NCBI GenBank assembly: GCA_026023565.1
Contig: JAPETS010000011.1
Span: forward strand, 434,001-498,000
DNA from: Cirrosporium novae-zelandiae
Lineage: Eukaryota
DNA: 64,000 bases
Reading direction: 5' to 3'
Made by a program: the position numbers and the translations under genes. Within the stretch, counting starts at the first letter, position 1; each line of letters opens with the position of its first letter. Below are positions 21,742 through 64,000 of this stretch, one piece after another. The notes beneath the pieces are model-generated. The model was not told the origin of the DNA. It did no database searches and saw nothing but the letters and a program-made list of their open reading frames with translations.

Positions 21742-22338
21742 ATGGCTGTCTCTCCAAAAACACAAAAGCCCCAAACTCCTACCAACGACCAACCTCCACC
21801 ACTTCCAAAAGGTTCTACGCTTCCACAGAATCGACTCGACCCGCCATATACTTCTCATGTCGAAATTCCACGCGCTGAGCCTGGCGCGCCTTGGCCTCCT
21901 TTGGATTCTAAGGACCGTAACCAACTATTCTCCTCTTCACTACCATGGCTAAAAACAGTCCATTCTCCTTCAACACACAATCCTCTTACAAGCAAGGAAT
22001 ATACGGCGTCCGAGCTACAAGGACAGGCGCAAGTTACGGAAGCTATACGAGGGAAATATGTAAAGGAGCATTCAAAACACAAGGATAAGAAAAAGGACAA
22101 GGAAGTGCGCAGGGCGGCTCTAGTAAAGAAAAGAGATGAAATCGCCAGAAGAATTGCAGAGGAATTGGAGAGAGTGAATAAGGAAAGGAACGAAATGGAC
22201 AAGAAGATTTCAGAAATGAACTTGCAACACGAGCTGGAGAAAAAGGTTTGGTTGAAGCAGAGGGAGGCTAGGGAAGAAAGGGAACGGGAAAGGGAGAGGA
22301 AGAGGAGACGAACGACTAGGAAAGAGGATGAGACGTGA
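21742..22338 (+). CDS. Hypothetical protein with C-terminal coiled coil
   Basis: 198-aa ATG ORF; P-rich N-terminus and charged E/R/K-rich C-terminus. Confidence 0.7.
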   Translation: MAVSPKTQKPQTPTNDQPPPLPKGSTLPQNRLDPPYTSHVEIPRAEPGAPWPPLDSKDRNQLFSSSLPWLKTVHSPSTHNPLTSKEYTASELQGQAQVTEAIRGKYVKEHSKHKDKKKDKEVRRAALVKKRDEIARRIAEELERVNKERNEMDKKISEMNLQHELEKKVWLKQREAREERERERERKRRRTTRKEDET

Positions 22339-23020
22339 CAAAAAGGGATCAAGAAATGAATCCAAAACAAGACTCGTGAATGGCTACGATTACGAACCCG
22401 AGTGCAAGGTCACGATCAAACGTGATCATATGAGATAGGGTAGACTACCTGGCTACATGAGGCACCCACCAACCGACATGGAACAACAGTAGCGAAGACC
22501 CTTATTGATGTTAAGAAGTTGTGGCGAACTATACAAGCCTAGCCATCATCTACTGGGAAAGGACTCTAATACCTCGGCTACATTATTGTCCCGATTGATT
22601 CCAAGCAGCCGTCGTATCCAAAAGAAAATTAAATAGACGGCCCAGCAGACAGTCTTCAGGCACTCATATCATTGCTCTGATAGCCCAAGAACATATGCCA
22701 AACTGCGACCCCGGAAATCGCCTCCCATTCGACATTGAAATATTGCCATCTCCGCCGATTTTTACTCGGTTTTATTGCATGGCCTTGTTTGCTTTCCAGC
22801 TCCCGTCTCCTGAGAAGGAAGCTCAATATTGTTCTAGGGAGGACATGGAATTAGAATACCTCGATGTTTTAGGCCTCAACGCGGCTAGAATAGAATGGAT
22901 GACCTAACCACCGAACAGAGCTCAGCCAACCAGCCAACCTAACCCCTGGCCCGCAAAAGCAGGACATGCACCAAAATGTGTCCTCAACTACCAAAGCAGC
23001 ACTACCATTTTCTAATGCAA

Positions 23021-23121
23021 TCCCGCATTGGCTCAGTGGTAAAAATCACTTTGCGCACTAGTTAGGTTTTAAAAGCTAGTTGTTCTACCAATAGCTAACA
23101 AGTTTGAGTCTGGCTGCGGGT
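23021..23121 (+). pseudogene. Degenerate tRNA gene, possibly intron-containing tRNA-Thr(AGT)
   Basis: CCCGCA (23022) pairs with TGCGGG (23115-23120). A box TGGCTCAGTGGT, anticodon-loop-like CTAGT, T-loop TTTGAGT (one C>T from TTCGAGT). The D- and T-stems are broken. Confidence 0.45.
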
Positions 23122-23307
23122 AAATTTCAAAGCGGGGTCTCTCTTGGGATGAATGTGAGGACGGAATGAGATTGATGAAGGGTGGTGAATAGGGGGAATG
23201 AAAAAGGAGGGCTAGGAACTGGGATAGGGGGAAGGGCACCTACAATAATCTGGGGGCAGGATGGGTCAGAGCTAGAGACTAGGGCTAGGAACATAAAAGC
23301 CCCAAGA

Positions 23308-24140
23308 GATATCTAAGAAAAAGCAAACCCCCCCAAGTCTAGAAATAGGGAAAGGGAGGACGAAGAACAACATGCCTAAGATGAGAGCTTTTCATAAATT
23401 ATCACCATACATGGAACATCTAAAACTATTTTCCCATTCCTATTCCCATTTTTTCCTATTTCACCTCTCCATTCTATTCATTCTACTTCTATATTTCTAA
23501 CTACCAAAAAAAAAAAAAAAACGGAGGGGAGGAAAGAAAGGGGGGAATTATGACAGAAGGAAAAAAAAAACAAAAGAAGAAATCACAAAAACATATCTTT
23601 CAAGCCCTTCTTCCCAACCCAATCCAACCCCAATCCAACTTTGCCCAATTCAAAATTTCGAACATATCTCCATACCAAATTACCAATCAACTTGATATAT
23701 AAAACCCCCCCAAGGGATATGATATCTAAGAAAAACCCCCCAACCCCCTCCTCTCCCCCCAAGTTCTAGGATAGAATAGAATACGGAAAAAGGGGGGATG
23801 AAGAACAACAGAGCATTAAAATGAGAGCTTTTTATAAATTGTTTAATATATATATATATACATGGATGGAACTTCTATTTAAAATTGTTTTAGTCTTTTC
23901 CTTTCTTTTTTTTGCGTCTACTTTTTATATTTTTGACTACGAGGAACAACAACAAAAAAAAGGGGGAGGGGGGGCATACTGTAACGGAAGACAGAAGGGA
24001 GAACGTGGGATTAAGAAACATATCTTTTTTTTCTAAGCCCTTCCAACCTCAAACCAACTTTGTCCAGTTCAAAATTCCAATTTCAAATATCCATCTCCGT
24101 GTCTAATCAATCAACCCAATCAGCTTAATATAAATATAAA
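23308..24140. repeat. Degenerate tandem duplication, ~413-bp period, 2 copies
   Basis: GATATCTAAGAAAAA at 23308 and 23721; GAAGAACAACA, ATGAGAGCTTTT, AAACATATCTTT, CCAACTTTG and TTCAAAATT are shared in order. Confidence 0.8.
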
Positions 24141-24702: not shown

Positions 24703-24966
24703 ATAAATACTAGGTTAGGTTCGATTCCTAAGAGCGCTCGCTAGTGATTGGTCAGTTACACTGGTATGTATCAATGTTCTTTTAGTAGCACTTCTTGCGA
24801 TTTATTATTGTATTTTTCGGCGGCCGTGGATTCGAATCACCTACGGGGTCATGATTTTGTGGGAGCCTAGATGTAACATCCATAAATACCAGGTTGGGTT
24901 CGATTTCCCAAGAGTGCTCGCTCGCTAGAGGATTTGTCAGTTACACTGGTATGTATCATTGTTCTT
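24703..24966 (+). repeat. Two copies (24703..24780, 24882..24966) of a ~75-bp B-box-containing dispersed repeat
   Basis: ATAAATAC(C/T)AGGTT(G/A)GGTTCGATT..AAGAG(C/T)GCTCGCT..GTCAGTTACACTGGTATGTATCA; a third copy lies at 51619. Confidence 0.8.
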
Positions 24967-51092: not shown

Positions 51093-51618
51093 ATAACTTT
51101 TTTTCTTCTCTCTGCTGATTGCTACTAACGGGAAACTTTGAAATGAACTTGGATGCGATAAAGGGAGCGGAGAGAGGGAGGTAGTTTACGGAAATTCCCT
51201 GATTTCTGCTGACCGGCTTAAGCATGGAATATGGGAGACCTTCAATGAATCGGGGGGATGGGAATTAAGATGGATGGATGGATGATGAGGGCCTATACTT
51301 TTTACTTGTAAGAAAGGGCTCGGCATGAGCTGGCTTATTTTCCCCTAACCCCCGGGTGTGACTTGTTTCCAAAAAAGATAGGAGCACTTATGCAGAGGAG
51401 ATGAAATCAATCATAAAACTATTGTGTCATGACTTTTTCTTTTTTTGCGGCATTGGCATGAACTGTTGGGGTCTCAGAGCCGACATATATTAATCCAGGC
51501 TCTATCTTCTCACAGCTAATAACATCTTGATCCACACATCTTTGTCCATCTATCCAACTTCTACCATCTCCCACAGCCTATCATGCTCCACATGTTCCTT
51601 TACCACATCTTGCATCGC

Positions 51619-51686
51619 CATAAATACCAGGTTGGGTTCGATCCCCAAGAGCGCTAGCGATTGGTTACACTGCTATCAGTGTTTTT
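51619..51686 (+). repeat. Third copy of the B-box-containing dispersed repeat
   Basis: CATAAATACCAGGTTGGGTTCGAT is identical to 24881..24904 and is followed by CCCCAAGAGCGCTAGCGATTGGTTACACTG. Confidence 0.8.
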
Positions 51687-51943
51687 CTCCGCAATCCACA
51701 GATTCACCCCCCCCCTCATATAACCCTTAAAGCACCCCCAAACAACTACCCCCAGCAGGGCGGGGTGAGGCGGGCCCAGAAAATTAATCCCCATAACCCT
51801 TCTTCCCATCCCTCACCAGCAAAAAAAAAGCTTGATGCTGGTGTCGATGCTTAAAGCCTAAAGCTACTAACTACCTAACTGCCCTGAAAATAGTATGGTT
51901 TGCTTATACATCATGACCCTGACATAACATCCCTACTTACTAG

Positions 51944-52069
51944 CAGCATTGTCGACAGACTAGACCAAATAGACCGTCTATAGACCTTAGACCGACCACA
52001 CCGAGCTTTTTGACAGATCGGCCAGACCAAGGAGGTCAGTCTGGTCGGTCTAGTCTATCGACAGCGCTG
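51944..52069. mobile_element. 126-bp non-autonomous hAT-type MITE
   Basis: Left TIR CAGCATTGTCGACAGACTAGACC versus reverse-complemented right TIR CAGCGCTGTCGATAGACTAGACC (20/23 match). 8-bp TSD CTTACTAG (51936-51943) / CTTACTGG (52070-52077). Confidence 0.8.
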
Positions 52070-53369
52070 CTTACTGGGCGATAGCTATACACCCCCTGGC
52101 TTCACCTGTCTTTCTAGTACCGTTCTTATATTCTTATATCACCCCCAACACACACGCATATATACACACACATACACATTACCATAATCCCTACTCCTAA
52201 CGCCACAATGCAATAATGAATCAAAACGGAAACCTCCCAATCTCCATCCTCCAGCCTCCATCATATATATATCTCTCTCTATGTGTATAACCTCCTCTGG
52301 AATACCATCATCGAAGGATTTAAACTCCAATCCGCAAAAGGTAGTCTTGCAATGGTTGGATAGTTGGATGGTTGGATGGTGTAAGGGTGGTATGTTATGG
52401 GATATGATGGGATGGAATATCAAGGAGTCTTGAGAAGTGCCGTGGTACCATTTATCCATCCCACATACCAACTATAGCTACAACCACAACTATAATCATA
52501 TCCATCCCCAGGTCCCTAGAAAAAAAAAGAGAGAGAGGATCATGTTGAATTCTCAATTCTAATCTCAACCTTCATTTCCTTTTCCTTTCCCTTTTCTTCT
52601 CCAACCCCTCCCCCCTTTCTTTTCAAGTGTGGAATATGCAGTACGATATATGATATGCTATGGCTGTAGCATCCAGTATCAGTTCTACCCATACATCCTT
52701 TCCATCTTCATTTTTACGGTTTTTATCATTGAGGGTAGGTATATTTATTTATGTTTTTGTATAGCCTTGTATATTCCAATAGACTTTCATCACTTTTATG
52801 ATATAGGATAGAGAATAGATTATGGATAGATAGCCCCCCTCCCGGCTACCTCCTTCCCCCCCTTTTCATTAACCAACCAACCAATTAACTAACTAATTAA
52901 CTATCCAACTATCCACCTCCGTATCTCTACCTCCCCCTCACTCCTAAACTCCATCCCATCTCATCCCATCCCTCCACTCCCGGCTATATAGATATCTCGT
53001 TACGTCCATAGTATATGTAACATCCACTTTCCTCAATCCAATCCAATCCACTTCAACCCACCCCCCCTTCCATCCAACCAGAGAAACAGAAAGGAAAATT
53101 CATGAAAGAAACAGACATGCATACATACATCCCAACTTCTTCCTTCGCCCTTCATGAACAAGAACAGGGCTTTTTAGGGGTAATAGTCCGTATGGGGATA
53201 TGGGAATATGTAGATATATAGAAAAACTGAGAGATTGTAGCATTTGTTCATTCATCCGTCATATTATATTATACGATATCGTATCATGCCCATCGCTGCT
53301 AGCTAGCCAGCCAGCTGTTAGGGGCTACCAAGGAGTGTTTGCACATGTATGTACACGGATTTCTTTCAT

Positions 53370-53650
53370 GCCGCCGAGAAATGCATACATGCTGCCGAGA
53401 TGCGTATCCATGCATACATTTAAATGAACTACTCATTCACTCCCCCTCCCCCAGCCGCCGAGAACATGCGTAGGAAAATTCAGATACTCATACGTACGCA
53501 TCCTTTTTGATTATTCATCCTTCCTACCGCCGAGAACCGCATGTATGTACGTCTGTAAAGGAATCACTAATTCACTCCCCTACCCCCTGTCGCCGAGAAT
53601 ATGCGTAAGAAAGCTCTAACACGCACACGCACGTATGCATGCATGCATGT
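53370..53650. repeat. Degenerate tandem repeat with five GCCGAGA cores
   Basis: GCCGAGA at ~53373, 53394, 53457, 53528 and 53592; ATTCACTCCCC..CGCCGAGAA(C/T)ATGCGTA repeated at ~135-bp spacing. Confidence 0.7.
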
Positions 53651-54599
53651 AAACGGAAAACATACCATAGACATGAGGACGTAGGGCCAGGAAGTGAATA
53701 GCCTGCTTACATACTAGTCCGTATTCATTCATCCATTCATCCATTCACCCGCTCACGGACTCTAGCTCTAGCCCCCCCCCCCCCCAAAAAAAAAACATAA
53801 ATATCCCTCTTCTTCTCCCTCCCTTCTCCAACTATCTTTCTTTTCCTTTTTTCATCAGACCCATAACCAGAACATCAACCACTCTTTCTTCATTCTTGAT
53901 TAGGGATATAATGCGGATATGATTATGCATCTTTGAGCTAATCACTTTTTCTCTTTCTTCCATGGCTAGATGGTTAGGATCAAGGACTAAGGACAACGGT
54001 TCATCTTTCAGTGGAGTACTCTTTTTTTCTCTCAGTTGGAATCAGAGTACTGATGTCAAATATTTAGCTTTCAATCACACCTTCTCCTTGGCTAGAACGA
54101 AAGCATATAGACCAACAGTTTATCTTTCAAATCAATCGAATTACTCTTTCTTTCTCCTTTGATGGTCGGAACCCTACCACAAATACCAACAGCAGTTGAT
54201 CCTTCAATAAATATATACCAATCCTTTTCACCACACCACAACGATATATACGACAGGTACCTTCCAAACCTCTTCAAGAGCATAGAAGACGGCCTATATT
54301 AAGACCACAGATACAATAACCAAAACACCATTCTTTACCGAGGTCACTGTGTGGTCAAGACACCATAATTCATCAACGCTAGGGACGACAATAAGAGCGG
54401 AAAGAAATAAATCTAAAAGGACGAACATAGCGAACTGATATGCTATTACTGTCTGAAAAATCTCCCACTCGATAGATTTTCAGAGGGAAATAGAGGCAAG
54501 ACTCGTGGATCTGCGAGTTCCCTTTTCAGGCGTTGCAAGCACTGTGAGATCTGGCCTCCTAGGACATGAAGGCAGCTATGAAAGTTATTTATCAACTTA

Positions 54600-54990
54600 C
54601 CTTTATTGCGCTCATCACATATTCTTAGGATTAGAAAAAGAGGTCTTTGTCGTGTCATTGTCAATGCTGGCCAGCCACCAAATAGCATTTTTGTCTTGTC
54701 TGGCTATGCTGCACAAGTCAAACGCTTGACCCGTTCGTTGCAGGATGCTGGTTTGAGCAAAGTCAGTGCCAATGTGACTAGCAACGATGAGGATAATCAA
54801 CCTCAAACAACAAGACTCCCGTGAGGCCTTCTCAAAGAGCATCAAAAAGCCAAGGACACAGACAACAAATAGTACGTAGGACCATGGATTAGGGAATAGA
54901 TAGCAAGGGGAAGTCGCCAGGTTTTACCACGACTTGACATTCTTACACGTGGCGTATCAGGAAAATGGTTATCTATTACTCACCTTTGGT
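54600..54990 (+). pseudogene. Decayed fragment of a Upf1-like SF1 helicase C-terminal domain (tentative)
   Basis: LCRVIVNAGQPPNSIFVLSGYAAQVKRL resembles the I(G/A)VI(T/S)PYxAQV..L motif. Broken downstream PGF..LTRG echoes GFL..LNVALTRA. Confidence 0.4.
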
Positions 54991-56099
54991 TCTTCTCCCT
55001 CCTTCTCGTGATGGTATTGGAGAAGCTAAATATACCCCAACATTGGGTCTCTTCGAAAAACCGCGGTGATGGTTAAAAGGTCATTATTTCACAAACGCTT
55101 AGGCACGATCCATTCCCACCTCCAGAAAATAACCCACCAAAGACGCCTAAACAACCATCCAAGAACAAAAAGGGAACCGGTAATCCGAAAAGCCAAAGTC
55201 ACAGCTCAAGGCCGCCACAACCTCTGGCCGTTTCGACTTATAGGCATGTATTAAGACCAAAAACGAGAGGATGAACAACGAGACTAAAGAGGAAGATCAG
55301 CCACAGAGCACAGCAGTACATAGCAAACGACAAGGGAAGAAGAATATATATAAAAACAGTGGTTCCAATTTCATATGGACAGCCTTCTCCAGCCATTGAA
55401 CAAGCCGAAAACCAACTAAACGAACACTAGCTTCAGAACCATTCACATACAGCACACAAGGCCACCGCAGTAGAGAAAGGGGTGGGCCAAACTCATGGGC
55501 TTCACAACGCGCAGAACAACTAGAAACCATGCAATCAGATCCCAAAGTGTGTCGGTCATAGTCAAAGAATATATTGCCCAAGCCAAAAAAGGGAGGGAAT
55601 AGCTATTAGAGGTTGCAACTTCCAACAGGTTATATGAGCCTAGGACAATTTCTCAAACGAAAATTGCTTTCTAGACAACTAAAATCACTTATTACTCAGT
55701 ATATTCAAGCACACTGATTTAAAGTGAATTAAGTGAAAAGGAAATTCCACTTAACAGACGACTCTCTGCGATTTTTCGCGTGCTGACATCGATACTTAGC
55801 GAGCTAGTCTCAGGATAGCTTAGGTTGGGTTTTACCCACAAACGACGTCATCCTAGCATGGTGGTTTACCGAGCGTACGGCATAAATAAATAAGCTCAAG
55901 GGAGAGCGAAATTATGCAGAATGATCTAGTCTATGGCACGGAATGTTTGATTCCAAATCGAGTTGCAACTTCCAACAATGGCGGGTACATACATAGGATC
56001 CTCCTAATACCTAGTAAAAAAAATTACTACAGCTCACTAGTGGAGTGGGTCGATGTTGGTGTTGCTACTGTTGTGGGAAAGGATATATCTATATATATA

Positions 56100-56370
56100 T
56101 TTACGAACTTACCAAGGTTCTTTTATGCTATTTCTTTCTCCTTCTTGCGCTCAATGATGATGGAAAGCAACTAGTTTCTACCCAGTGCAACAGAAAATTG
56201 GAGATCAGTCCAAGAGATCCACCACTGTTCAAGAACCTACCTAGGTTCTATTACACTCTCTTTCTCCCTCTTGCGCTCAACGATGAGGGAAAAGGAACCG
56301 AGTTTCCATTCAACACGACAAGATTCTCGATTGGTCTAAAAGATTCACTGTTCTGTTCAAGAACCCACCA
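56100..56370. repeat. Degenerate tandem duplication, ~130-bp period
   Basis: TTTCTCC(T/C)TCTTGCGCTCAA(T/C)GATGA and CTGTTCAAGAACC(T/C)ACC each occur twice. Confidence 0.75.
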
Positions 56371-56699
56371 TCTGATAGCTTGGAGCCAAAAACACACTTT
56401 CTAACAGCACTCTTTCACCAAGCAGAAGTGTGGCAGCTGGAAGATTAATCTAAGAATTCATGGACCACGGAAAAATCAGAAGAGTCCAATCTGCTACCCT
56501 CCTTTTCCTTATTTCAAAAGAAATCATAAAGTGGCATCACATCCAAATAACAACTAGAGAGACTTATATAAGACATGCACGAACTTGAACGGTGCAGGCA
56601 GTGTTGGGCTAGCGCCTATCTATAAAGCCCATAATCTTAGCCTTGATTAGACCAACCAATCTATACACTACACACTGCTCAGTTATCATCCTCAACGGG

Positions 56700-57810
56700 C
56701 TTGGACGCTGCAAAAACTCAAGAATTATATATATTTTTCTACCCTTGTTCGATTTTGGAAAGTCGAGTTTTGTATTGTATATACACTTCTCCCTCGAGGT
56801 ATATATCGCTCAAGGGCGTCGCACCCGAGATCTTCAGATGTGAGAGATCTATTCTGGCTTCCTTCTACCTAGTGAAAACCTCACATGGCGCATTTTATCT
56901 AGTTTCGCTATAATGGGACTTCAATTTCTCAACCACCCTAACAGCATGCACACACACAAGGAAAAGGCTACAAACATAAGTTGCATATACTGCAGGGAAT
57001 CCAACTAGGCTTCGGCCGGGCAAGCTTGTGAAATTAGTCAATTAATTAACACGAGATAATTCTTCGAGGAGGATTTTCATCCAGAGCTTCTTCATACCCA
57101 AGGATTCTCAGGTGCAAGAAAGATCTATCTATCTGACTTCTTCTTCTTCCTGGTGAAAGACCTCATGCGGTATTGTTTTTTATTTGGTTCTCGCTATATG
57201 TGGGGACTTTGATTTATCAAATATACCCACTAACAGCATATATACACACAAAGAAAAGGCCACAATCACTGCCTGCATACGCCATAGGGAGTCAGCTGGG
57301 CGAAAGAAACTTAAAAATTAGTCAGTCAGTTAACACAAGATAATTTTTCTTCGGAAGATATTCGCCCAAAGGCTTTGCATCCAAGATCCTCAGGTGGTAC
57401 GAGAGATATATCTATTCTGGCTTCTTCTTCTTCTTCTTCTTCTTCTTCTTCTTCTTCTTCTTCTTCCTAGTGAGAAACTTCATGTAGTGTGTTTTATTTA
57501 GTTTCGCTATCGGGGACTTCGGGTCTCGATTTCTCAAATACACCTCACTAACAGCGTGCACGCACACGAAGAGAAAGGCCACAAACATAACTTGTATATA
57601 CCGTAGGGAATCCAATTAGACTTCGGCTGGGCAAATTTTGTCAATTAGTTAGGGCTTCAGGCTTCGATTTATCAAATACCCTCCCAAACAATGTGTGCAC
57701 ATATAAATAAAGAAAAGACCACAATCACTGCCTGTATATGCCATAAGGAGTCGGGTGGGCGAGGGAAGATTTGTAACCCAGTCGGTATCCACAAAATAAT
57801 CTCTCGGGGG
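56700..57810. repeat. Degenerate tandem array, ~280-320-bp unit, 3-4 copies, one carrying an expanded CTT tract
   Basis: CTAACAGC, GAAAAG(G/A)C(C/T)ACAA (56961, 57253, 57573, 57711), GGGACTT, TCGCTAT and AAATTAGTCA recur in order; about 15 CTT units at 57421-57467. Confidence 0.85.
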
Positions 57811-58073
57811 GAGAATAGAATATCAAATAGCAAAACCAATTCTAGCACCACCACCGCCACCAGGCATTTTTTGACCTCTTTACGAAAGAAAGAAGAGACA
57901 AATTACCTGAATTTTTCACGAGAGAAGCTGACTGGCTTTTTCAGATGATGACGGCAGGCAGCAGCAGCAGCAGCAGCAGCAAGCACACCGGTGAAGGCAG
58001 CGATTGCATATGGAGATGTTCTCATCGATATTCAAAGTCCTAGAATGGAGTATAATAATACTATAACTAATTT

Positions 58074-58108
<35 letters not shown>

Positions 58109-60952
58109 CTCTCTGCTCCAATTTTTTACTTCACTTTTATTTTTGGATTAAATTTGTATAAGAAAAAAATTAGGCTTTCTTTCTTTCTATCTGTGTATGG
58201 AGGAAAATCTATATATGTGAAGATAGGATTAGGATATATATGTTGGAGGGATGGGGGGTTCTGGTCTGGGGATGAAGGGGGAACCACAGAGTTATTAGAG
58301 GGGGGGCACGATGTTCGAAAATTCAATCTCCCCAAACCATCTAAACCACTACAAATAGCGGTATCTTAGTTACCAAAAACCAATAATCCGAAAACCAACA
58401 GTAAGGAGAGGAGAACGGAAAAAGGAAATGAGGTTTGTGAAGTTTACCTATCTACCTAGGTACCTACCTATCCCTAGTCATACAGTACACACACAAAAGT
58501 CGATTAAACTGACTAGCTAGCTTAGCTACCAGTTGAATAAATGAAATGAATGAATGTTATATTATACTTTTAAAACTATATGCTCCATGTTCCATGCCCC
58601 ATACCCATGATTTTTTTTTTTTTTGGTTTTGTAATGCACAGAGTGACAGAGTCTGATAATGATAATACTAACCCCCCCCTCCCTAAGCCTAAGCTAAGCT
58701 GAGGGAAGAACGTAGAACAGTTGATAGTAGTGGAATGGAGGTGGAATGGGGATAATAATCCCAATCCCAATCCCATCCCAGCTCACAAAAAACAACACCA
58801 CCAACCAGGAGTTTATCCTATTTTAATTTAGGTCAACCTAAACTAAACTAAACTTCCTGCCCTTGAACTTCGCGCCGATTCGAGATCTTTTCCACTACGG
58901 CTAATTACTCAACTTACTTGTTTACTATATCAAAGCAAAAAAAATATCTAAAAAAATAGATGAAAGGGTAGAAAATAGAATAGAACGTTCCCTTACTTAT
59001 GATGGGACCTTTTTTTTTTGGAAAGGGAGCCATACTATTTGGTGATATTTTGTGGGTCGGTTGCATACTTACCTACCTACTTACCTACTTACCTACTTAC
59101 CTATAGGAATGAATGAATAAATGATAGCAAGTGATAGTGATAATATAAATTTTACCCAGGGTCAAGAAGGAATAGTCCTCATCTTTTCCGTCTTTTTTTT
59201 CGTGTTCCCCTTGTGTCTGTGTCTGTGTGTCCCTTCCTTACGACTTAAGTGAACACATCAAATAATAATAATAAGTTGGTACTTGGTAAGTAGGATAGAT
59301 AGAAATATTCAAAGCAGAGAAGAAGCAGGAAAAAAATACTTAAGCTCTAAGGTCTAAGGAATAAGCATATCTATAACCCTACAACAAACAAATATCAACC
59401 ACAGATAAATAATATCCCCCTTATGCCCCCTTACGGAAAAAAAAAAGAACTTCTCCAGTAATTAACTAGCAATCTAGATTTTGCATATTCTTATTCTGTA
59501 CCCTCCCTATCTTATCTTGTAAAGACCAAGTTCTTCTTCTCTTCTCTTCTATACGCGCAAAACCTGCCTATACACAAGACAGACCCCTAGCCAGACTATA
59601 TACAACTGAAGTCTTACATACTGAACACAAGGGAAATTTATTAAATTTAAAAAGAAGAATATCTTTGTTTCCAAATAAAAAAAAACCCCCTCACTTATCG
59701 AAAGTTTCTAATCCGTCCCTATTATTCTATTATTCCTTCTTCTTCAAAACTTCATCCAAATCATCCTCCTTTAATATTGCATGCGCTTTTTTGTCTTTCT
59801 TTTTATTGATTTTATTTTCTTCGATGGCATCACCCATCTCGTCCCAATTCGTTTCGATCGGTTCCGCTACCACAGAGTGCGCTTCTTTCGCATCACCACC
59901 ATCATTATCATCATCTAAACCGCATTTTCCCCCCCATCAGTACAGTAACAAGCCAAGTATCGATCATATATATAATGAATAAAACTAGGAACTTGTTGGA
60001 ACCAACTAAACATACCTTTTTTTTCGTCATCGTCGTTGTCGGGAGTACCTTGTCCCGAACATATTCAATTTTCTTTCCTAGAGTCTTTCCATAGGCTTTG
60101 AGGTGCTCTATATGGTTGTTCATTATGGACTGTGTGTGTATCTATCTAATGTCCTGGATTCGATTGTGTGCATAAAAGCGATGTCCTGAAAAGGAGAGAG
60201 AGAGAGAAAATCCAAAATATCCAAAATTCGTTTCGTTCCAAGGGTGCTTTGTGGAATGTTCTTGAATGGTTTATTTTTCTGTCAAGGCATGTTGTGTGAT
60301 TAGGATGATGGTATATGGGTTGTTTTAAAGGTTCCTGCTCATTCATTAGGTAGGTGTTTTGATGTGTAGCACCGAAATCATAAATCAGCCATCCTGAGAT
60401 CTGTACTCTTGTAGACCGAGATAGGCAACAATAAAGACTAGTCATTTCATGGAACGGCAAGCAAGTGAAAACTTTCGCGTTTGACTCTTATGAAACCTAT
60501 CAAACTAAGTTCCCCGAGTCAAAGCCGAAAGGTAATGATAAAGCGGTAGTAGCAAGAGTACTAAAGTTCTCCAAAAACCAGGATGTGTGGTTCTGTAAGC
60601 AGTGAGTCGTAGGCAGGCCGATTGTTGTAATAGATAAACACATGGCTTTCTCTATAATAGACTAGGATGATAGTGATTAGGATTATTTAGAATTCGACGT
60701 TGATAAAAAGAAGATTCTGATGCATGAACCAAAGAGAATTAATAAGGACTTCGAGAGTAGTTAAGGGCTTGGATGGCAAGTTGAAAACGGCAGGTCAGTG
60801 GCAAAAAGGAATCAGATTTTGGTGAATTTTGGGCTCCTTCCTTCATAATCATGAACGGGTTTCACAGAGCTAGAACCACTCCATCTCTTAGTATCAAAAA
60901 CATCTAGAATAGGGAAGCAGCAAATGCCAGAATAAAAGGTGTTTAACATGAC

Positions 60953-61428
60953 AAAAAAGTTCAGATGCCCATTGACATCTTATGAAAACTCCCACCTCGG
61001 GCCTGCTCATCCCGAGAGGTGTTCTTCGGCCTCCCCGTTCTTTCTTCCCCCTTCGGCATCGGCCATGTCGTGTGGATTTTTGTCACTGGTGGGATTCGAA
61101 CTCGTCCATGCCCTTCTTGCCTTTATTGCCCCTCCGATTTTTCTGCCCCTCTGATTTTTTTACCCATCTGATTTTTTTGCCCGTGCCCTTCCTGCCCTTC
61201 CTGCCCTTCCTGCCCGTGCCCTTCCTGTCCGTGCCCTTCTTGCCCCTCTGATTTTTTTACGCCTTTGATTTTTTTGCCGCCTGTCCCCGTGCTCAACTAT
61301 CCTATCCCCCCTTCCACTCTTCTACCCACCGCAGGATTCGAACTCGGCACTTCGTTTGGCAGTAGCCTTTTCGTCACTGTGAAATGTGCTAGGTCTACTG
61401 GGCGGGACCACTGAGCCACTTTGATTTA
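60953..61428 (-). ncRNA. Candidate Pol III type-2 transcription unit (tRNA-derived SINE or unknown ncRNA)
   Basis: A box TGGCTCAGTGGT (61418-61407), B box GAGTTCGAATCC (61345-61334) and an identical second B box (61103-61092). No T4 run on the minus strand until 60988-60985, then T6 at 60958-60953. Confidence 0.5.
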
Positions 61429-63200
61429 CCGCCGACAAGTTTCCCTTGATTGTAGCTTATCAAGGGAAGCACCTTCAGAATGAGCATGTGATTAGGGAAC
61501 CCGAAAGCAGGCTAGACCAAGGCCATAAAGCTTCATATCAATGGTTTGATTGCCCTACCCACCATTTCAAGTATAACCTGCGTGGCATCCTCTCGCTTAT
61601 AGCAAGAGTGAGCTACAGATACTCAATAAGTTTCTCTCCAGTTAACTATATTAAGTATCTTTTTGACTCGTCGTCCAAATCCCAAGTCCGTCGTTCCTGT
61701 CATCATGTCTACCTAGAGAATAAGTCATACCAGTCAGCCTCTATGAACATGTATGAACATGTATGAACATACACCATCTGGCATTCGAGGCCATGCCGCC
61801 GCCCATAAGCAAAAAATGATCCAAAACAAAAATAAGTTGATTCAACCGATGCAATGAAGTAAAATTACTCAAAAGCGACATGATCTAACCAGTTCTTCAA
61901 ATCAAAGAAATTACAACATGAAACAAGAACCTCAGGCTTCATAAATGTCTTTGGATGTTCATACAATATTCTTGTTCCGCTGGACATGACCAAAGGTCAC
62001 CTAGTATTTAGGTATTCCTTCCAAAGTTCCAGCAAAGATCCTATGAAGGATTGAGGGCTCGATCTAGAGGTTGTATATTTCAGTATCCCCTCCACACCCT
62101 CTCCGAAACAACATGCTGAATTGATGCCAGCAGGGTGCGAGTAATATAAATAATAACTACACCACCATCACTACCATCATCACCACCGTCATCATCATTA
62201 CCAAATCCCCAGGAACTGTAGGAGGTTATGCAGCAAGACGGTTGTGTATATAGTAGGTAATAATGTTAATTAATATAAACTGTCAGTGTCATGAATCATT
62301 GTTATGGAATTACCTAGTTTGAACTGTTTGACTAGTTTGTTTAGAACGCAGGCCTTGTCGCGGGATATATAACCAGTACTTCTAGAACTACCTAGGTACC
62401 TAGGTACTCAGTGGAAATCTTCATCCTTTTTATAACTGACCACGTTGCTCATAACAATGACCATTTTCCCAATAATCATTCGGAGGAGAAGGTGAAAAAG
62501 AGATAGACAAAGAAAGGAGCAATGCCAGTTTTAAGGAAGAGCTACAATGAAGGAACAGAATGAGGGGTTGTTTGCGAGAAGAATGAATATAATAGATCAA
62601 ACTATTATCAATTCACAACATTCTATGTTGGAAGAAATTAGCGCTGAGATTTGTAAGCCATATTTGGTTTAGCGAATTTGCAATCCCTGGCGGCATCGCG
62701 TCCTCTATAACCTTACCGAGACATCAATAAGAAGGTCATCTAAGTAACATTACTCGATATTATGTATTATATATACTTACCCATTTAATGAATCATAAAT
62801 CCTATATAGGTAATACGAATCTGGAACTTTTTGGTTGTGATAGCTGAAATGCGACCTCATCGATGCACTACTGTTTCCATTTTCAATAGTCTACTGCATG
62901 CAAATGTTAAGCTTACCGCAAGACCAAAAAAAAACGTGGAATATTATAGACAGCTTTACATGATATTGATCCTAACAAATTCTCTTCGATTTCATATTTA
63001 CTTGTCCCAACTAAATAACCCTACTCTTGGCGCTCCACAGCCACATCAATAGAACATTCCGGCAGAAGCACACCGCCGAGCAAAGTCAACTTACTTAACT
63101 CCATCCCCACCTCCCAAAATCACAATGTCACGTTCACCAAACATTTATTTCTCTACACTATTATCCCTAAGCCAAATATAAACCAACTTCTTCAGCCCTT

Positions 63201-63810
63201 ATGGATACTCCTCACATCGCGATGCCAGACCCAGACCCCGCGAGCCCAGATTCTTACAAGCGAGAATCTGCTGCTACAGTTGAGGAAGAAGAGGGAGAAA
63301 TCACTCCATCAGCTCTAGAATACACGGCACCGAAAGAAGGTGTGTGGGGGGGAGACAGCAGCGTGGACGCTGGAACAAGGCCCCAAGAGATCAAAGAAGC
63401 TGCCCAACAGGTCTTGAGTATGCACTTATATCCCTCCCCTCTCCCTCATCCCATCTTATCCCATCCCATCCCAAAACTAATACTAGCAAAACAGAAAAGC
63501 ACGTCTCAGACATAAAATTCAAAATGATGACTACACTCATCATCGGTACGTCTTACCTATCCATCCATATACTAACCTAATAATAATCCTTGTTTGTGTA
63601 TACATGCATGCATGCTTACTGAGCTACTAAGCTAATATAATATTCTCCTACCTCGAAACAGATAAAATCAACAAGACAGACGAGACAAATTTGTCAGAAT
63701 GGGCAAATATTAAAATGGAGATTTGGATGCTGGATACTTTGATTGATATGGCCAATCGGAGACAGGATTTTCATGTCGATATGAGGGAAAGGTGTACCTG
63801 GATGGAATAA
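63201..63810 (+). CDS. Hypothetical acidic protein, 3 exons (introns ~63418..63494 and ~63547..63661)
   Basis: GTATGC..CTAAT..CAG and GTACGT..CTAAT..CAG introns splice in phase into one reading frame ending RERCTWME*. Confidence 0.6.
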
Positions 63811-64000
63811 GTAGTCGTAGGGATGGGATCTCTATGGTGGTGGCATATAGTTTTTTTTTTTTTGGTTCAAAGCATGTGTGTTTATGAACTTGGATTCTTT
63901 TAAGAGATGAAACATTGGATATTTTCTCTGTGTGTACAATAATAAAAAATTAAGCCCCATCACCATAGAATCCCAATACAAAGAATACAAAAAAAAGCAA

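What the first reader, a model, noticed from the sequence alone, without database searches (positions are those of the whole stretch)
60953..61428. Candidate ~450-nt Pol III element: tRNA-like head, duplicated B box, internal repeat body and 3' hairpin
Seen on the minus strand: a textbook A box (TGGCTCAGTGGT) and B box (GAGTTCGAATCC) about 60 nt apart, with a stem between them (CAGTAG-A-CCT / AGGCTACTG) but no tRNA acceptor stem. The body is built from GGAAGGGCA and AAAAAAATCAGA units and contains a second identical B box. A hairpin (CACCTC..GGG / CCCGAGGTG) precedes the first T4, and a T6 follows about 30 nt later. The GC-rich body stands out from the AT-rich flanks and avoids T-runs on this strand only. 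Established: A and B boxes recruit TFIIIC, and oligo-T terminates Pol III. Inference: this is an undescribed tRNA-derived SINE or Pol III ncRNA. I saw no SRP, RNase P, MRP or U6 hallmark.
Basis: partly seen in the sequence, partly recalled or inferred. Interest (0 to 1): 0.72.

Follow-up and report, generated by a model that had tools for sequence, protein, structure and literature searches.

The report
Decayed tRNA-derived SINE-like repeat in fungus
The stretch is most likely an old, worn copy of a small tRNA-derived mobile element (a SINE-like retroposon) in a filamentous fungus, with a second diverged copy 38 kb away, which makes it an ordinary kind of genome parasite rather than a new RNA gene.

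Summary
The window is nuclear DNA of a Pezizomycotina fungus; the nearest protein, at 95%, is labelled Cirrosporium, class Xylobotryomycetes.

The element is not a tRNA and matches no Rfam family. Its full-length fold is no better than shuffled sequence (z +1.87).

It is not unique. A colinear, diverged second copy lies at 23027-23478 (+). Single-sequence nhmmer gives E = 3.1e-6, while 0 of 40 block-shuffled queries and the reversed query come near that score. The copies are 254/431 identical. Homology starts 1-2 nt before the shared perfect A box and ends in a T-rich tail; the 5' flanks are unrelated.

Copy 2's head has a 6-bp acceptor stem. In the probable source assembly only the tail (60955-61019) recurs, on 4 other contigs. 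No full-length copy reaches 80% identity.

Best reading (0.6): an old, low-identity tRNA-derived SINE-like family, with minisatellite expansion in copy 1. Target-site duplications, a LINE partner and transcription are not shown.

Novelty: a new member of a known kind. Interest is low to moderate.

The parts
60903..61420 (-). Copy 1 of the repeat unit, delimited by homology with copy 2. It runs from 1-2 nt before the A box to about 50 nt past the T6.
   Evidence: nhmmer with copy 1 plus flanks as query: model positions 201-718 (61420..60903) align to 23027-23478 (+), E 3.1e-6, 19.5 bits. Controls: reversed query best 0.2 bits; 0 of 40 block-shuffled queries reach 19.5, maximum 9.1.
61407..61418 (-). 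A box TGGCTCAGTGGT. It matches TRGCNNAGTGG at every specified position.
   Evidence: Identical in copy 2.
61360..61400 (-). Anticodon-arm-like extended stem, CAGTAGACCT / AGGCTACTG, with a 22-nt loop.
   Evidence: MFE -11.2 kcal/mol, z -2.64, 1 of 200 shuffles folds as well. Copy 2 has CACTAG / CTAGTT at the corresponding place; the arm-to-arm match is my own manual alignment.
61334..61345 (-). B box 1, GAGTTCGAATCC, 61 nt after the A box.
61109..61282 (-). Purine-rich body made of minisatellite arrays: 9-nt GGAAGGGCA, a 15-nt unit, and a 17-nt AAAAAAATCAGAGGGGC type.
   Evidence: TRF. The motifs occur once each in copy 2 (GGGAAGGGCAC; CAATAATCTGGGGGC). 56 body positions of copy 1 align to gaps in copy 2.
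61092..61103 (-). B box 2, GAGTTCGAATCC, a 13-nt exact repeat of the B box 1 region. It is present only in copy 1.
   Evidence: Copy 2 has no B box at the aligned place.
60955..61030 (-). Tail module: GCCGAAGAACA, then the hairpin CACCTCTCGGG...CCCGAGGTG, then GGGAGTTTTCATAAGATGTCAATGGGC. This is the only part found again in the host assembly.
   Evidence: 4 other X1 contigs cover 60955-60989 or 60973/60976-61019, 35-47 nt each, with 3-6 differences plus one 1-nt gap. Tail identity to copy 2 is 69/100. The hairpin's stability is not above shuffles.
60934..60988 (-). T-rich terminator zone: T4 at 60988-60985, T6 at 60958-60953, T4 at 60937-60934.
   Evidence: Copy 2 has T4 at index 371 (about 23389) and index 411 (about 23429) of the stretch from 23018 and a T6 near 23449-23454 (read).
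23027..23478 (+). Copy 2 of the repeat unit. It has the A box at 23029-23040, a decayed B box GTTTGAGTCT at 23102-23111, an acceptor-like pairing CCCGCA (23022-23027) / TGCGGG (23115-23120), and a tail with part of the hairpin deleted.
   Evidence: ARAGORN at its 90% threshold calls 23021-23122 a tRNA-like fold; it is 1 of only 3 calls in the window at that threshold.
23756..23900 (+). Tail-only third copy. It was produced by a local ~430-bp tandem duplication that also carries flank, so it is not an independent insertion.
   Evidence: blastn 23351-23400 ~ 23789-23840 (82.7%, E 6e-8) and 23589-23657 ~ 24016-24076. nhmmer E 1.4e-5 to 9.4e-8.

Best explanation
Window 60903-61420 (minus strand) is one worn member of an old family of tRNA-derived, SINE-like retroposons in a Pezizomycotina genome.

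In the standard scheme for such elements:
1. The tRNA-related head carries an internal type-2 Pol III promoter. TFIIIC binds the A and B boxes and TFIIIB/Pol III starts about 10 nt upstream of the A box.
2. Transcription runs through a tRNA-unrelated body and stops in the T-rich tail.
3. The RNA is copied back into DNA by the reverse transcriptase of a LINE that recognises the 3' tail module.

Copy 1 has since amplified two short body motifs into minisatellites and carries an extra B box. Copy 2 has lost its B box through three transitions and has lost part of the tail hairpin.

Shown: the motifs; the homology of two dispersed, oppositely oriented copies with unrelated 5' flanks; a tRNA-like fold in copy 2's head; recurrence of the tail elsewhere in the genome.

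Inferred: Pol III transcription, retroposition, and the LINE partner.
For: 1. Two copies. Copy 1 used alone as a query finds 23027-23478 (+) as its best non-self hit, colinear over the whole unit, at E 3.1e-6. The reversed query scores 0.2 bits, and 0 of 40 block-shuffled queries reach 19.5 bits (maximum 9.1). In the tile scan that locus ranks first among the tiles outside copy 1's own locus (624's count), for both the whole element (z 4.6) and the tail (z 4.0-4.2).

2. Boundaries fit a Pol III unit. Homology begins 1-2 nt before the A box and ends in the T-run zone. The sequences upstream do not align.

3. The head is tRNA-related. The A box is identical in both copies, and these are the only 2 matches in the window. 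Copy 1's B box is perfect. Copy 2's head has a 6-bp acceptor stem and is 1 of 3 ARAGORN calls at the 90% threshold. The inter-box stem scores z -2.64. In my manual alignment, its third pair is G-C in copy 1 and C-G in copy 2.

4. The tail is dispersed. Four other contigs of X1, each at single-copy depth (361-369 against 342), carry 35-47 nt of 60955-61019.

5. Size and style match published fungal tRNA-related SINEs: 140-493 bp, low copy number, degenerate boxes, no cloverleaf fold, and one family with an extra B' box (PMC5063351; abstract and sections 3 and 16 read).

6. It does not behave like a structured RNA gene: no Rfam family at gathering score in the window, none at E<=10 on the element, and the fold is no better than shuffles.
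Against: - No full-length copy at 80% identity or above elsewhere in the 35.7-Mb probable source assembly.
- The two copies are only 58.9% identical (254/431) with 108 gap columns, so any amplification was ancient.
- The heads alone do not find each other: E>100, z 2.5.
- No convincing target-site duplication. For copy 1 the best candidate is 9 nt, TGCTTCCCT; repeats of 9 nt or more arose in 22 of 300 shuffles; and its 3' copy lies inside the stretch that aligns with copy 2. For copy 2 there is only a 7-mer.
- The tail is pyrimidine/T-rich, not A-rich or a simple 3' repeat.
- The other contigs that carry the hairpin continue with sequence unlike ours but alike among themselves. They may therefore belong to a different repeat that shares only this module.
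- No LINE or reverse-transcriptase remnant in 51-64 kb: 0 of 77 frames.
- Neither head is recognised by Rfam's tRNA model at E<=10.
- Transcription is untested.
Confidence: 0.6

Rival explanations
1. Repeated but not retroposed. Both loci would descend from an ancient DNA-level duplication of a tRNA gene or pseudogene together with its downstream DNA, or would be fragments of a larger, unrecognised transposon. They have since decayed, with minisatellite growth in copy 1.
For: - A DNA-level duplication that includes tail plus flank is demonstrably present next to copy 2 (23351-23657 ~ 23789-24076).
- No TSDs.
- No full-length copies at 80% or above elsewhere.
- The hairpin module occurs in other contigs within a different shared context.
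- Homology runs about 50 nt past the T6.
Against: - The 5' limit of homology coincides with the start of the tRNA-like head, and the upstream flanks are unrelated.
- The copies are 38 kb apart and in opposite orientation.
- No transposase, reverse-transcriptase or other domain nearby: 0 of 77 frames in 51-64 kb apart from RPS7e and one sub-threshold AAA_12 match.
Confidence: 0.17
2. A working Pol III gene. Copy 1, perhaps with copy 2 as a paralogue or pseudogene, would encode a lineage-specific ~470-510-nt ncRNA. Alternatively it would act as a TFIIIC-bound chromatin element with one A box and two B boxes.
For: - Copy 1 has a perfect A box and two perfect B-box cores, at a spacing compatible with type-2 promoters, and no T4+ run before the tail.
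- The A box is 12/12 identical between copies that are otherwise 59% identical.
Against: - No Rfam family.
- No fold signal for the whole element (z +1.87) or for the tail hairpin (z -0.28).
- The body is an unstable minisatellite that differs by 56 gap positions from copy 2.
- Copy 2's B box is destroyed and a T4 lies inside its head.
- The absence of T-runs is explained by 13.8% T.
Confidence: 0.1
3. Other origin for the shared sequence. The two loci would share sequence for reasons unrelated to tRNA or Pol III, with the boxes as chance motifs inside an unclassified low-complexity repeat.
For: - Each box alone is within chance for the window: 20 of 100 shuffles give 2 or more A boxes.
- The relaxed B-box count is 15 against 10.6 expected.
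- Both loci are purine-rich, and purine-rich coding tiles score nearly as high in the tile scan (z 4.0 for 21801-22400).
Against: - The only two A boxes in the window both sit at the 5' edge of the two homologous units.
- Copy 2's head folds with an acceptor stem.
- B box 1 lies at tRNA-like distance from the A box.
- Composition-preserving controls do not reproduce the alignment score: 0 of 40.
Confidence: 0.08

Closest known systems
tRNA-related SINEs of filamentous ascomycetes: AfuSINE2 families of Aspergillus fumigatus, plus MgSINE, Foxy and nrs1 as listed in PMC5063351 (abstract, sections 3 and 16 read)
   Same: - Length class: 140-493 bp for AfuSINE2, 472 bp for MgSINE, 500 bp for nrs1.
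- A tRNA-related head with A and B boxes, followed by a long tRNA-unrelated region.
- Low copy number and heads that do not fold as cloverleaves.
- One family (AfuSINE2-1a) also has an extra B' box downstream.
   Different: - No sequence comparison was possible, because none of those sequences is at hand.
- Those families have 4-14-bp TSDs, and some have a 3' simple repeat (ACT)n or similarity to a Tad-clade LINE. Here TSDs and the LINE link are not shown.
- The extra B box lies about 240 nt downstream, not 20.
- The host belongs to a different class (near Xylobotryomycetes).
Stringent-type LINE/SINE pairs that share a 3' stem-loop (general principle; abstracts of PMC5135761 and PMC7245038 as seen in search listings)
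   Same: The only part of the element that recurs at high identity in the genome is a ~45-65-nt 3' module containing a 9-bp-arm hairpin. That is where a partner LINE's recognition signal would sit.
   Different: - The other carriers were not retrievable, so whether any is a LINE 3' UTR is unknown.
- The module is followed by different sequence in them, not by a common 3' end.
- The hairpin's stability is not above shuffles.
Genuine tRNA genes and pseudogenes
   Same: A box, B box and an anticodon-arm-like stem. Copy 2 has a 6-bp acceptor stem.
   Different: - Copy 1 has no acceptor stem.
- Neither T-arm pairs, by my own reading.
- ARAGORN default finds 0 tRNAs, with none even when introns are allowed.
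- No Rfam tRNA hit at E<=10.
- Homology continues for about 400 nt beyond the head.
Yeast Pol III genes with a tRNA-like leader promoter (RPR1, SNR52) and extra-TFIIIC (ETC) sites; recalled from general knowledge, not from any call
   Same: A and B boxes ahead of a longer non-tRNA RNA. Isolated B boxes can bind TFIIIC.
   Different: No RNase P or snoRNA model matches, and the downstream body is a minisatellite. No binding or expression data exist.

Membership tests
tRNA-derived SINE (non-autonomous non-LTR retroposon) | 5' head carries internal Pol III A and B boxes in tRNA-like order and spacing | tested here: met
   Copy 1 has the A box at 61418-61407 and the B box at 61345-61334, with 61 nt between them. 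Copy 2 has an identical A box and a B box decayed by three transitions.
tRNA-derived SINE (non-autonomous non-LTR retroposon) | Head demonstrably derived from a tRNA | tested here: inconclusive
   Copy 2's head is 1 of 3 ARAGORN calls at the 90% threshold and has a 6-bp acceptor stem. Copy 1's head is called only among 87 calls at the 80% threshold. Rfam's tRNA model finds neither at E<=10. The host's own tRNA genes were not available for comparison.
tRNA-derived SINE (non-autonomous non-LTR retroposon) | Multiple dispersed copies with common ends and unrelated flanks | tested here: inconclusive
   There are 2 full units in the window with unrelated 5' flanks, 1 tail copy made by local tandem duplication, and tail fragments on 4 other contigs. 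There are 0 further full-length copies at 80% or above in the 35.7-Mb assembly. A sensitive genome-wide search was not possible because no genome is held.
tRNA-derived SINE (non-autonomous non-LTR retroposon) | Target-site duplications flanking each copy | tested here: not met
   Copy 1: a 9-nt candidate, matched or exceeded in 22 of 300 shuffles and badly placed. Copy 2: a 7-mer only. Old copies often lose their TSDs (PMC5063351, section 16), so this weakens the case without excluding it.
tRNA-derived SINE (non-autonomous non-LTR retroposon) | 3' end related to a partner LINE, or an A-rich or simple-repeat tail | not testable with these tools
   The tail module recurs on other contigs, but those contigs cannot be fetched. 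There is no reverse-transcriptase domain in 51-64 kb. The tail here is T/pyrimidine-rich.
tRNA-derived SINE (non-autonomous non-LTR retroposon) | Transcribed by Pol III | not testable with these tools
   No expression or ChIP data could be reached.
tRNA gene | Cloverleaf with acceptor, D, anticodon and T arms | tested here: not met
   ARAGORN finds 0 in the window, both by default and with introns allowed. No Rfam RF00005 hit at E<=10.
Known Pol III or other RNA families in Rfam 15 (7SL, RNase P/MRP, U6, 5S, snoRNAs, telomerase RNA and others) | Covariance-model match at or near gathering score | tested here: not met
   0 matches at gathering score in the whole window. At E<=10 there are 5 weak matches in 60500-61900. 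None lies on the element's sense strand within 60985-61428. The best is Afu_335, on the opposite strand, at 19 bits against a gathering score of 50.
Named fungal SINE families (MgSINE, Foxy, nrs1, AfuSINE2, SINE2-1_BG) | Sequence similarity to the family consensus | not testable with these tools

The most novel reading that the evidence does not exclude
Copy 1 would be an exapted SINE-derived unit that is still live rather than a dead relic. In that reading it is a Pol III-transcribed, lineage-specific ~470-510-nt purine-rich RNA, or a TFIIIC-bound element with one A box and two B boxes. Its promoter would have been kept intact by selection while the body evolved freely. It would then be the first Pol III element of this kind described for the class Xylobotryomycetes.
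Probability: 0.1. Interest if true: 0.5.

Novelty: new member of a known kind. Interest (0 to 1): 0.25.

Why it matters
If the reading is right, this is the first pointer to a SINE-like family in a barely studied class of ascomycetes. In the library searched, one search listed only a taxonomy paper among the top 10 for Xylobotryomycetes/Cirrosporium, with no repeat description for that lineage.

Its practical value is modest:
- It gives annotators a seed (two copies plus a tail module) for building a repeat model.
- It flags a conserved 3' hairpin module that may identify the partner LINE.
- It warns that perfect A and B boxes in fungal intergenic DNA need not mark a gene.

It does not open a long-standing question.

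Tried and rejected
- **Whole-genome search.** No genome is held for this window.
- **Sequencing runs.** No RNA holder is listed. The only holder is X1, the probable source of this DNA.
- **Laying contigs of X2 and X3.** X2 had nothing laid. X3 gave one 39-nt contig on the (TGCCCTTCC)n microsatellite only. Neither says anything about conservation.
- **Metagenome scan with a 20-nt tail word.** The 3 loci are all chance matches. Two are high-GC sequences that look like bacterial coding DNA. One is a 44%-GC contig sharing only 22 nt.
- **Genome-collection scan with a 26-nt tail word.** 0 matches.
- **Earlier findings.** Look-ups by sequence, by place and by words returned nothing.
- **Protein Atlas.** Closed for new sequences.
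- **Rfam.** At permissive threshold there were only weak unrelated hits at both loci. These include Afu_335 snoRNA on the opposite strand over 60889-60984, at 19 bits against a gathering score of 50.
- **Stringent local alignment.** The first tile scan (+2/-3 scoring) was too strict to chain blocks. Heads alone do not detect each other.
- **Further copies in the window.** Head, tail and full-length profiles found none beyond copies 1-3.
- **RIP as the cause of divergence.** Rejected. RIP indices around copy 1 are ordinary, with only 58-60 kb borderline. The differences between the copies are 80 transitions against 97 transversions.
- **TSDs.** Not convincing.
- **Transposon or LINE remnants in 51-64 kb.** 77 frames scanned. 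The only hits were RPS7e and a sub-threshold AAA_12.
- **Taxon placement.** The first search used the wrong length band by my mistake and was repeated correctly.
- **Telomerase-RNA idea.** A CCCTAA lies upstream, at about 61497-61492. I dropped the idea: it is a single hexamer outside the homologous unit, and no Rfam telomerase model matches.

Full report
**What is there.**
- A box TGGCTCAGTGGT at 61418-61407.
- A 10/9-nt stem, 61400-61391 pairing with 61368-61360.
- B box GAGTTCGAATCC at 61345-61334, 61 nt after the A box.
- A purine-rich body made of 9-, 15- and 17-nt tandem units, 61109-61282.
- A second identical B box at 61103-61092. The exact repeat is 13 nt.
- A hairpin, 61021-61011 pairing with 61001-60993.
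- T4 at 60988-60985 and T6 at 60958-60953.

The window is fungal nuclear DNA, with intron-split ORFs and about 44% GC. A conserved acyl-CoA ligase fragment is 95% identical to a protein labelled Cirrosporium novae-zelandiae. All other listed hits are 79% or lower, most of them 68-74%, and come from several Pezizomycotina classes. Cirrosporium belongs to the class Xylobotryomycetes.

**More than chance?** Singly, the boxes are not remarkable:
- The A-box consensus has 2 matches in the window against 0.80 expected, and 20 of 100 shuffles give 2 or more.
- The strict B-box core has 3 matches against 0.52 expected, and 1 of 100 shuffles gives 3 or more.
- A relaxed B-box pattern has 15 matches against 10.6 expected.

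What is remarkable is the arrangement, together with what the second A box led to (see the decisive observation below).

- The 3' hairpin is no more stable than shuffles (z -0.28).
- The whole 476 nt folds worse than shuffles (z +1.87).
- The lack of T-runs follows from 13.8% T on that strand.

Only the inter-box stem stands out (z -2.64; 1 of 200 shuffles folds as well).

**What it is not.**
- ARAGORN finds no tRNA in the window, with or without introns allowed.
- Rfam 15 gives no match at gathering score in the whole window.
- At E<=10 Rfam gives nothing on the element, including no tRNA, 7SL, RNase P/MRP, U6 or telomerase model.

**The decisive observation.** The only other perfect A box in the window, at 23029 (+), heads a second, diverged copy with the same layout:
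- The A box.
- A stem, CACTAG / CTAGTT.
- A B box decayed by three transitions (GTTTGAGTCT), followed by TGCGGGTA, where copy 1 has TGCGGTGGGTA.
- A purine-rich body containing, once each, the motifs that are tandemly amplified in copy 1.
- The same tail: GGAGG.CGAAGAACA ... GATGAG ... TTTTCATAA ... CATCT.AAC, then T-runs.

The statistics for this homology are as follows:
- With copy 1 plus flanks as a single-sequence nhmmer query, this locus is the best non-self hit. It is one colinear alignment, 61420-60903 against 23027-23478, at E 3.1e-6 and 19.5 bits. The next hit has E 0.16.
- The reversed query reaches 0.2 bits.
- 40 block-shuffled queries reach at most 9.1 bits, so 0 of 40 reach 19.5.
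- Without flanks, the reciprocal E-values were marginal: 0.023 and 0.02.

Identity is 254/431 aligned columns (58.9%) with 108 gap columns. By segment it is head 54/96, body 107/189, tail 69/100 and post-T6 24/46. The differences are 80 transitions and 97 transversions. The divergence is therefore old and not RIP-like, and RIP indices around copy 1 are ordinary.

Homology begins 1-2 nt before the A box, and the upstream flanks do not align.

Copy 2's head has a 6-bp acceptor pairing, CCCGCA (23022-23027) with TGCGGG (23115-23120). It is one of only 3 ARAGORN calls in the window at the 90% threshold. Copy 1's head appears only among 87 calls at the 80% threshold.

A third, tail-only copy at about 23756-23900 belongs to a ~430-bp local tandem duplication that includes flank. 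It is not an independent insertion.

**Elsewhere in the genome.** Only one run holds the locus. It is the probable source assembly, X1, at 35.7 Mb. I laid its contigs on 60000-62400 at 80% identity or above:
- One contig covers everything.
- Four others cover only 60955-60989 or 60973/60976-61019, that is, the tail module with the hairpin. They have 3-6 differences plus one 1-nt gap, and each sits at single-copy depth.
- Beyond the module, those contigs run on with sequence unlike ours but alike among themselves.

So the tail module is dispersed, while head and body have no near-identical relatives.

Given 59% identity between the two window copies, an 80% threshold would miss most old members. 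Finding two in one 64-kb window suggests one of two things: either many very diverged members genome-wide, or a local origin. This last point is inference.

**Interpretation.** The layout is that of a tRNA-derived SINE: a tRNA-related head with a type-2 Pol III promoter, a tRNA-unrelated body, a 3' module shared with other repeats, and a T-rich end.

The published Pezizomycotina examples fit the picture. AfuSINE2 families are 140-493 bp, low-copy, have degenerate boxes and no cloverleaf fold, and one carries an extra B' box. MgSINE is 472 bp and nrs1 is 500 bp with 11 copies (PMC5063351; abstract and sections 3 and 16 read).

The A box is perfectly retained in both copies, and in my manual alignment one stem pair is swapped (G-C to C-G). 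Both facts fit copies descending from a master lineage whose promoter stayed intact. This is inference.

I put 0.6 on this reading. Four points count against it:
- TSDs are not convincing.
- No LINE partner was found.
- The tail is not A-rich.
- No full-length near-identical copies exist.

Rival readings are DNA-level duplication or a fragment of a larger repeat (0.17), a live Pol III gene or TFIIIC site (0.10), and an unrelated low-complexity repeat with chance boxes (0.08).

**What could not be done.**
- No fungal genome collection, Repbase, Dfam or SINEBase was available, so membership in a named family and true copy number are open.
- A metagenome scan returned only chance matches, and a prokaryote-genome scan with tail words returned none.
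- Transcription could not be examined.
- Literature searches surfaced no description of repeats in Xylobotryomycetes. The only listed paper on that lineage is a taxonomy paper (PMC6712537, listing only). Supplements were not consulted.

**Verdict.** This is most likely a decayed member of an undescribed but conventional tRNA-derived SINE-like family, a new member of a known kind. Interest: 0.25.

Noticed in passing
window 24703-24781 (+), 24882-24966 (+), 51618-51676 (+): A separate ~60-85-nt repeat is present three times, at 78-90% identity. It carries a TATA-like CATAAATACC, a perfect tRNA T-arm hairpin (TTGGG-TTCGATC-CCCAA, an exact B box GGTTCGATCCC/GGTTCGATTCC), and then GTTACACTGGTATGT. 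It has no A box and no similarity to the element studied. It could be another tRNA-derived relic or a shared promoter module.
   Followed up: partly
window 23351-23657 and 23789-24076 (+): A local tandem duplication of about 430 bp (74-83% identity) duplicates the tail of copy 2 together with about 250 nt of downstream flank.
   Followed up: partly
window ~51100-64000: About 13 kb has no recognisable coding domain: 77 stop-to-stop frames of 55 aa or more gave only RPS7e at the left edge and a sub-threshold AAA_12 match at 54582-54821 (E 0.0077). This is unusually gene-poor for the otherwise compact window. GC falls to 36-37% at 58-60 kb, with borderline RIP-type indices.
   Followed up: partly
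window 60955-61019, and four other contigs of run X1: The tail hairpin module recurs on other contigs. Beyond the module, their flanks agree with each other but not with this locus. This suggests a second repeat family, possibly the partner LINE or another SINE subfamily, that shares only this module.
   Followed up: no
window 61742-61770 (+) and 62160-62194 (+): Short perfect or near-perfect tandem repeats, (TATGAACATG)x2.9 and (CACCATCATCAC)x2.9, lie in the flank of copy 1. They are probably ordinary microsatellites.
   Followed up: no
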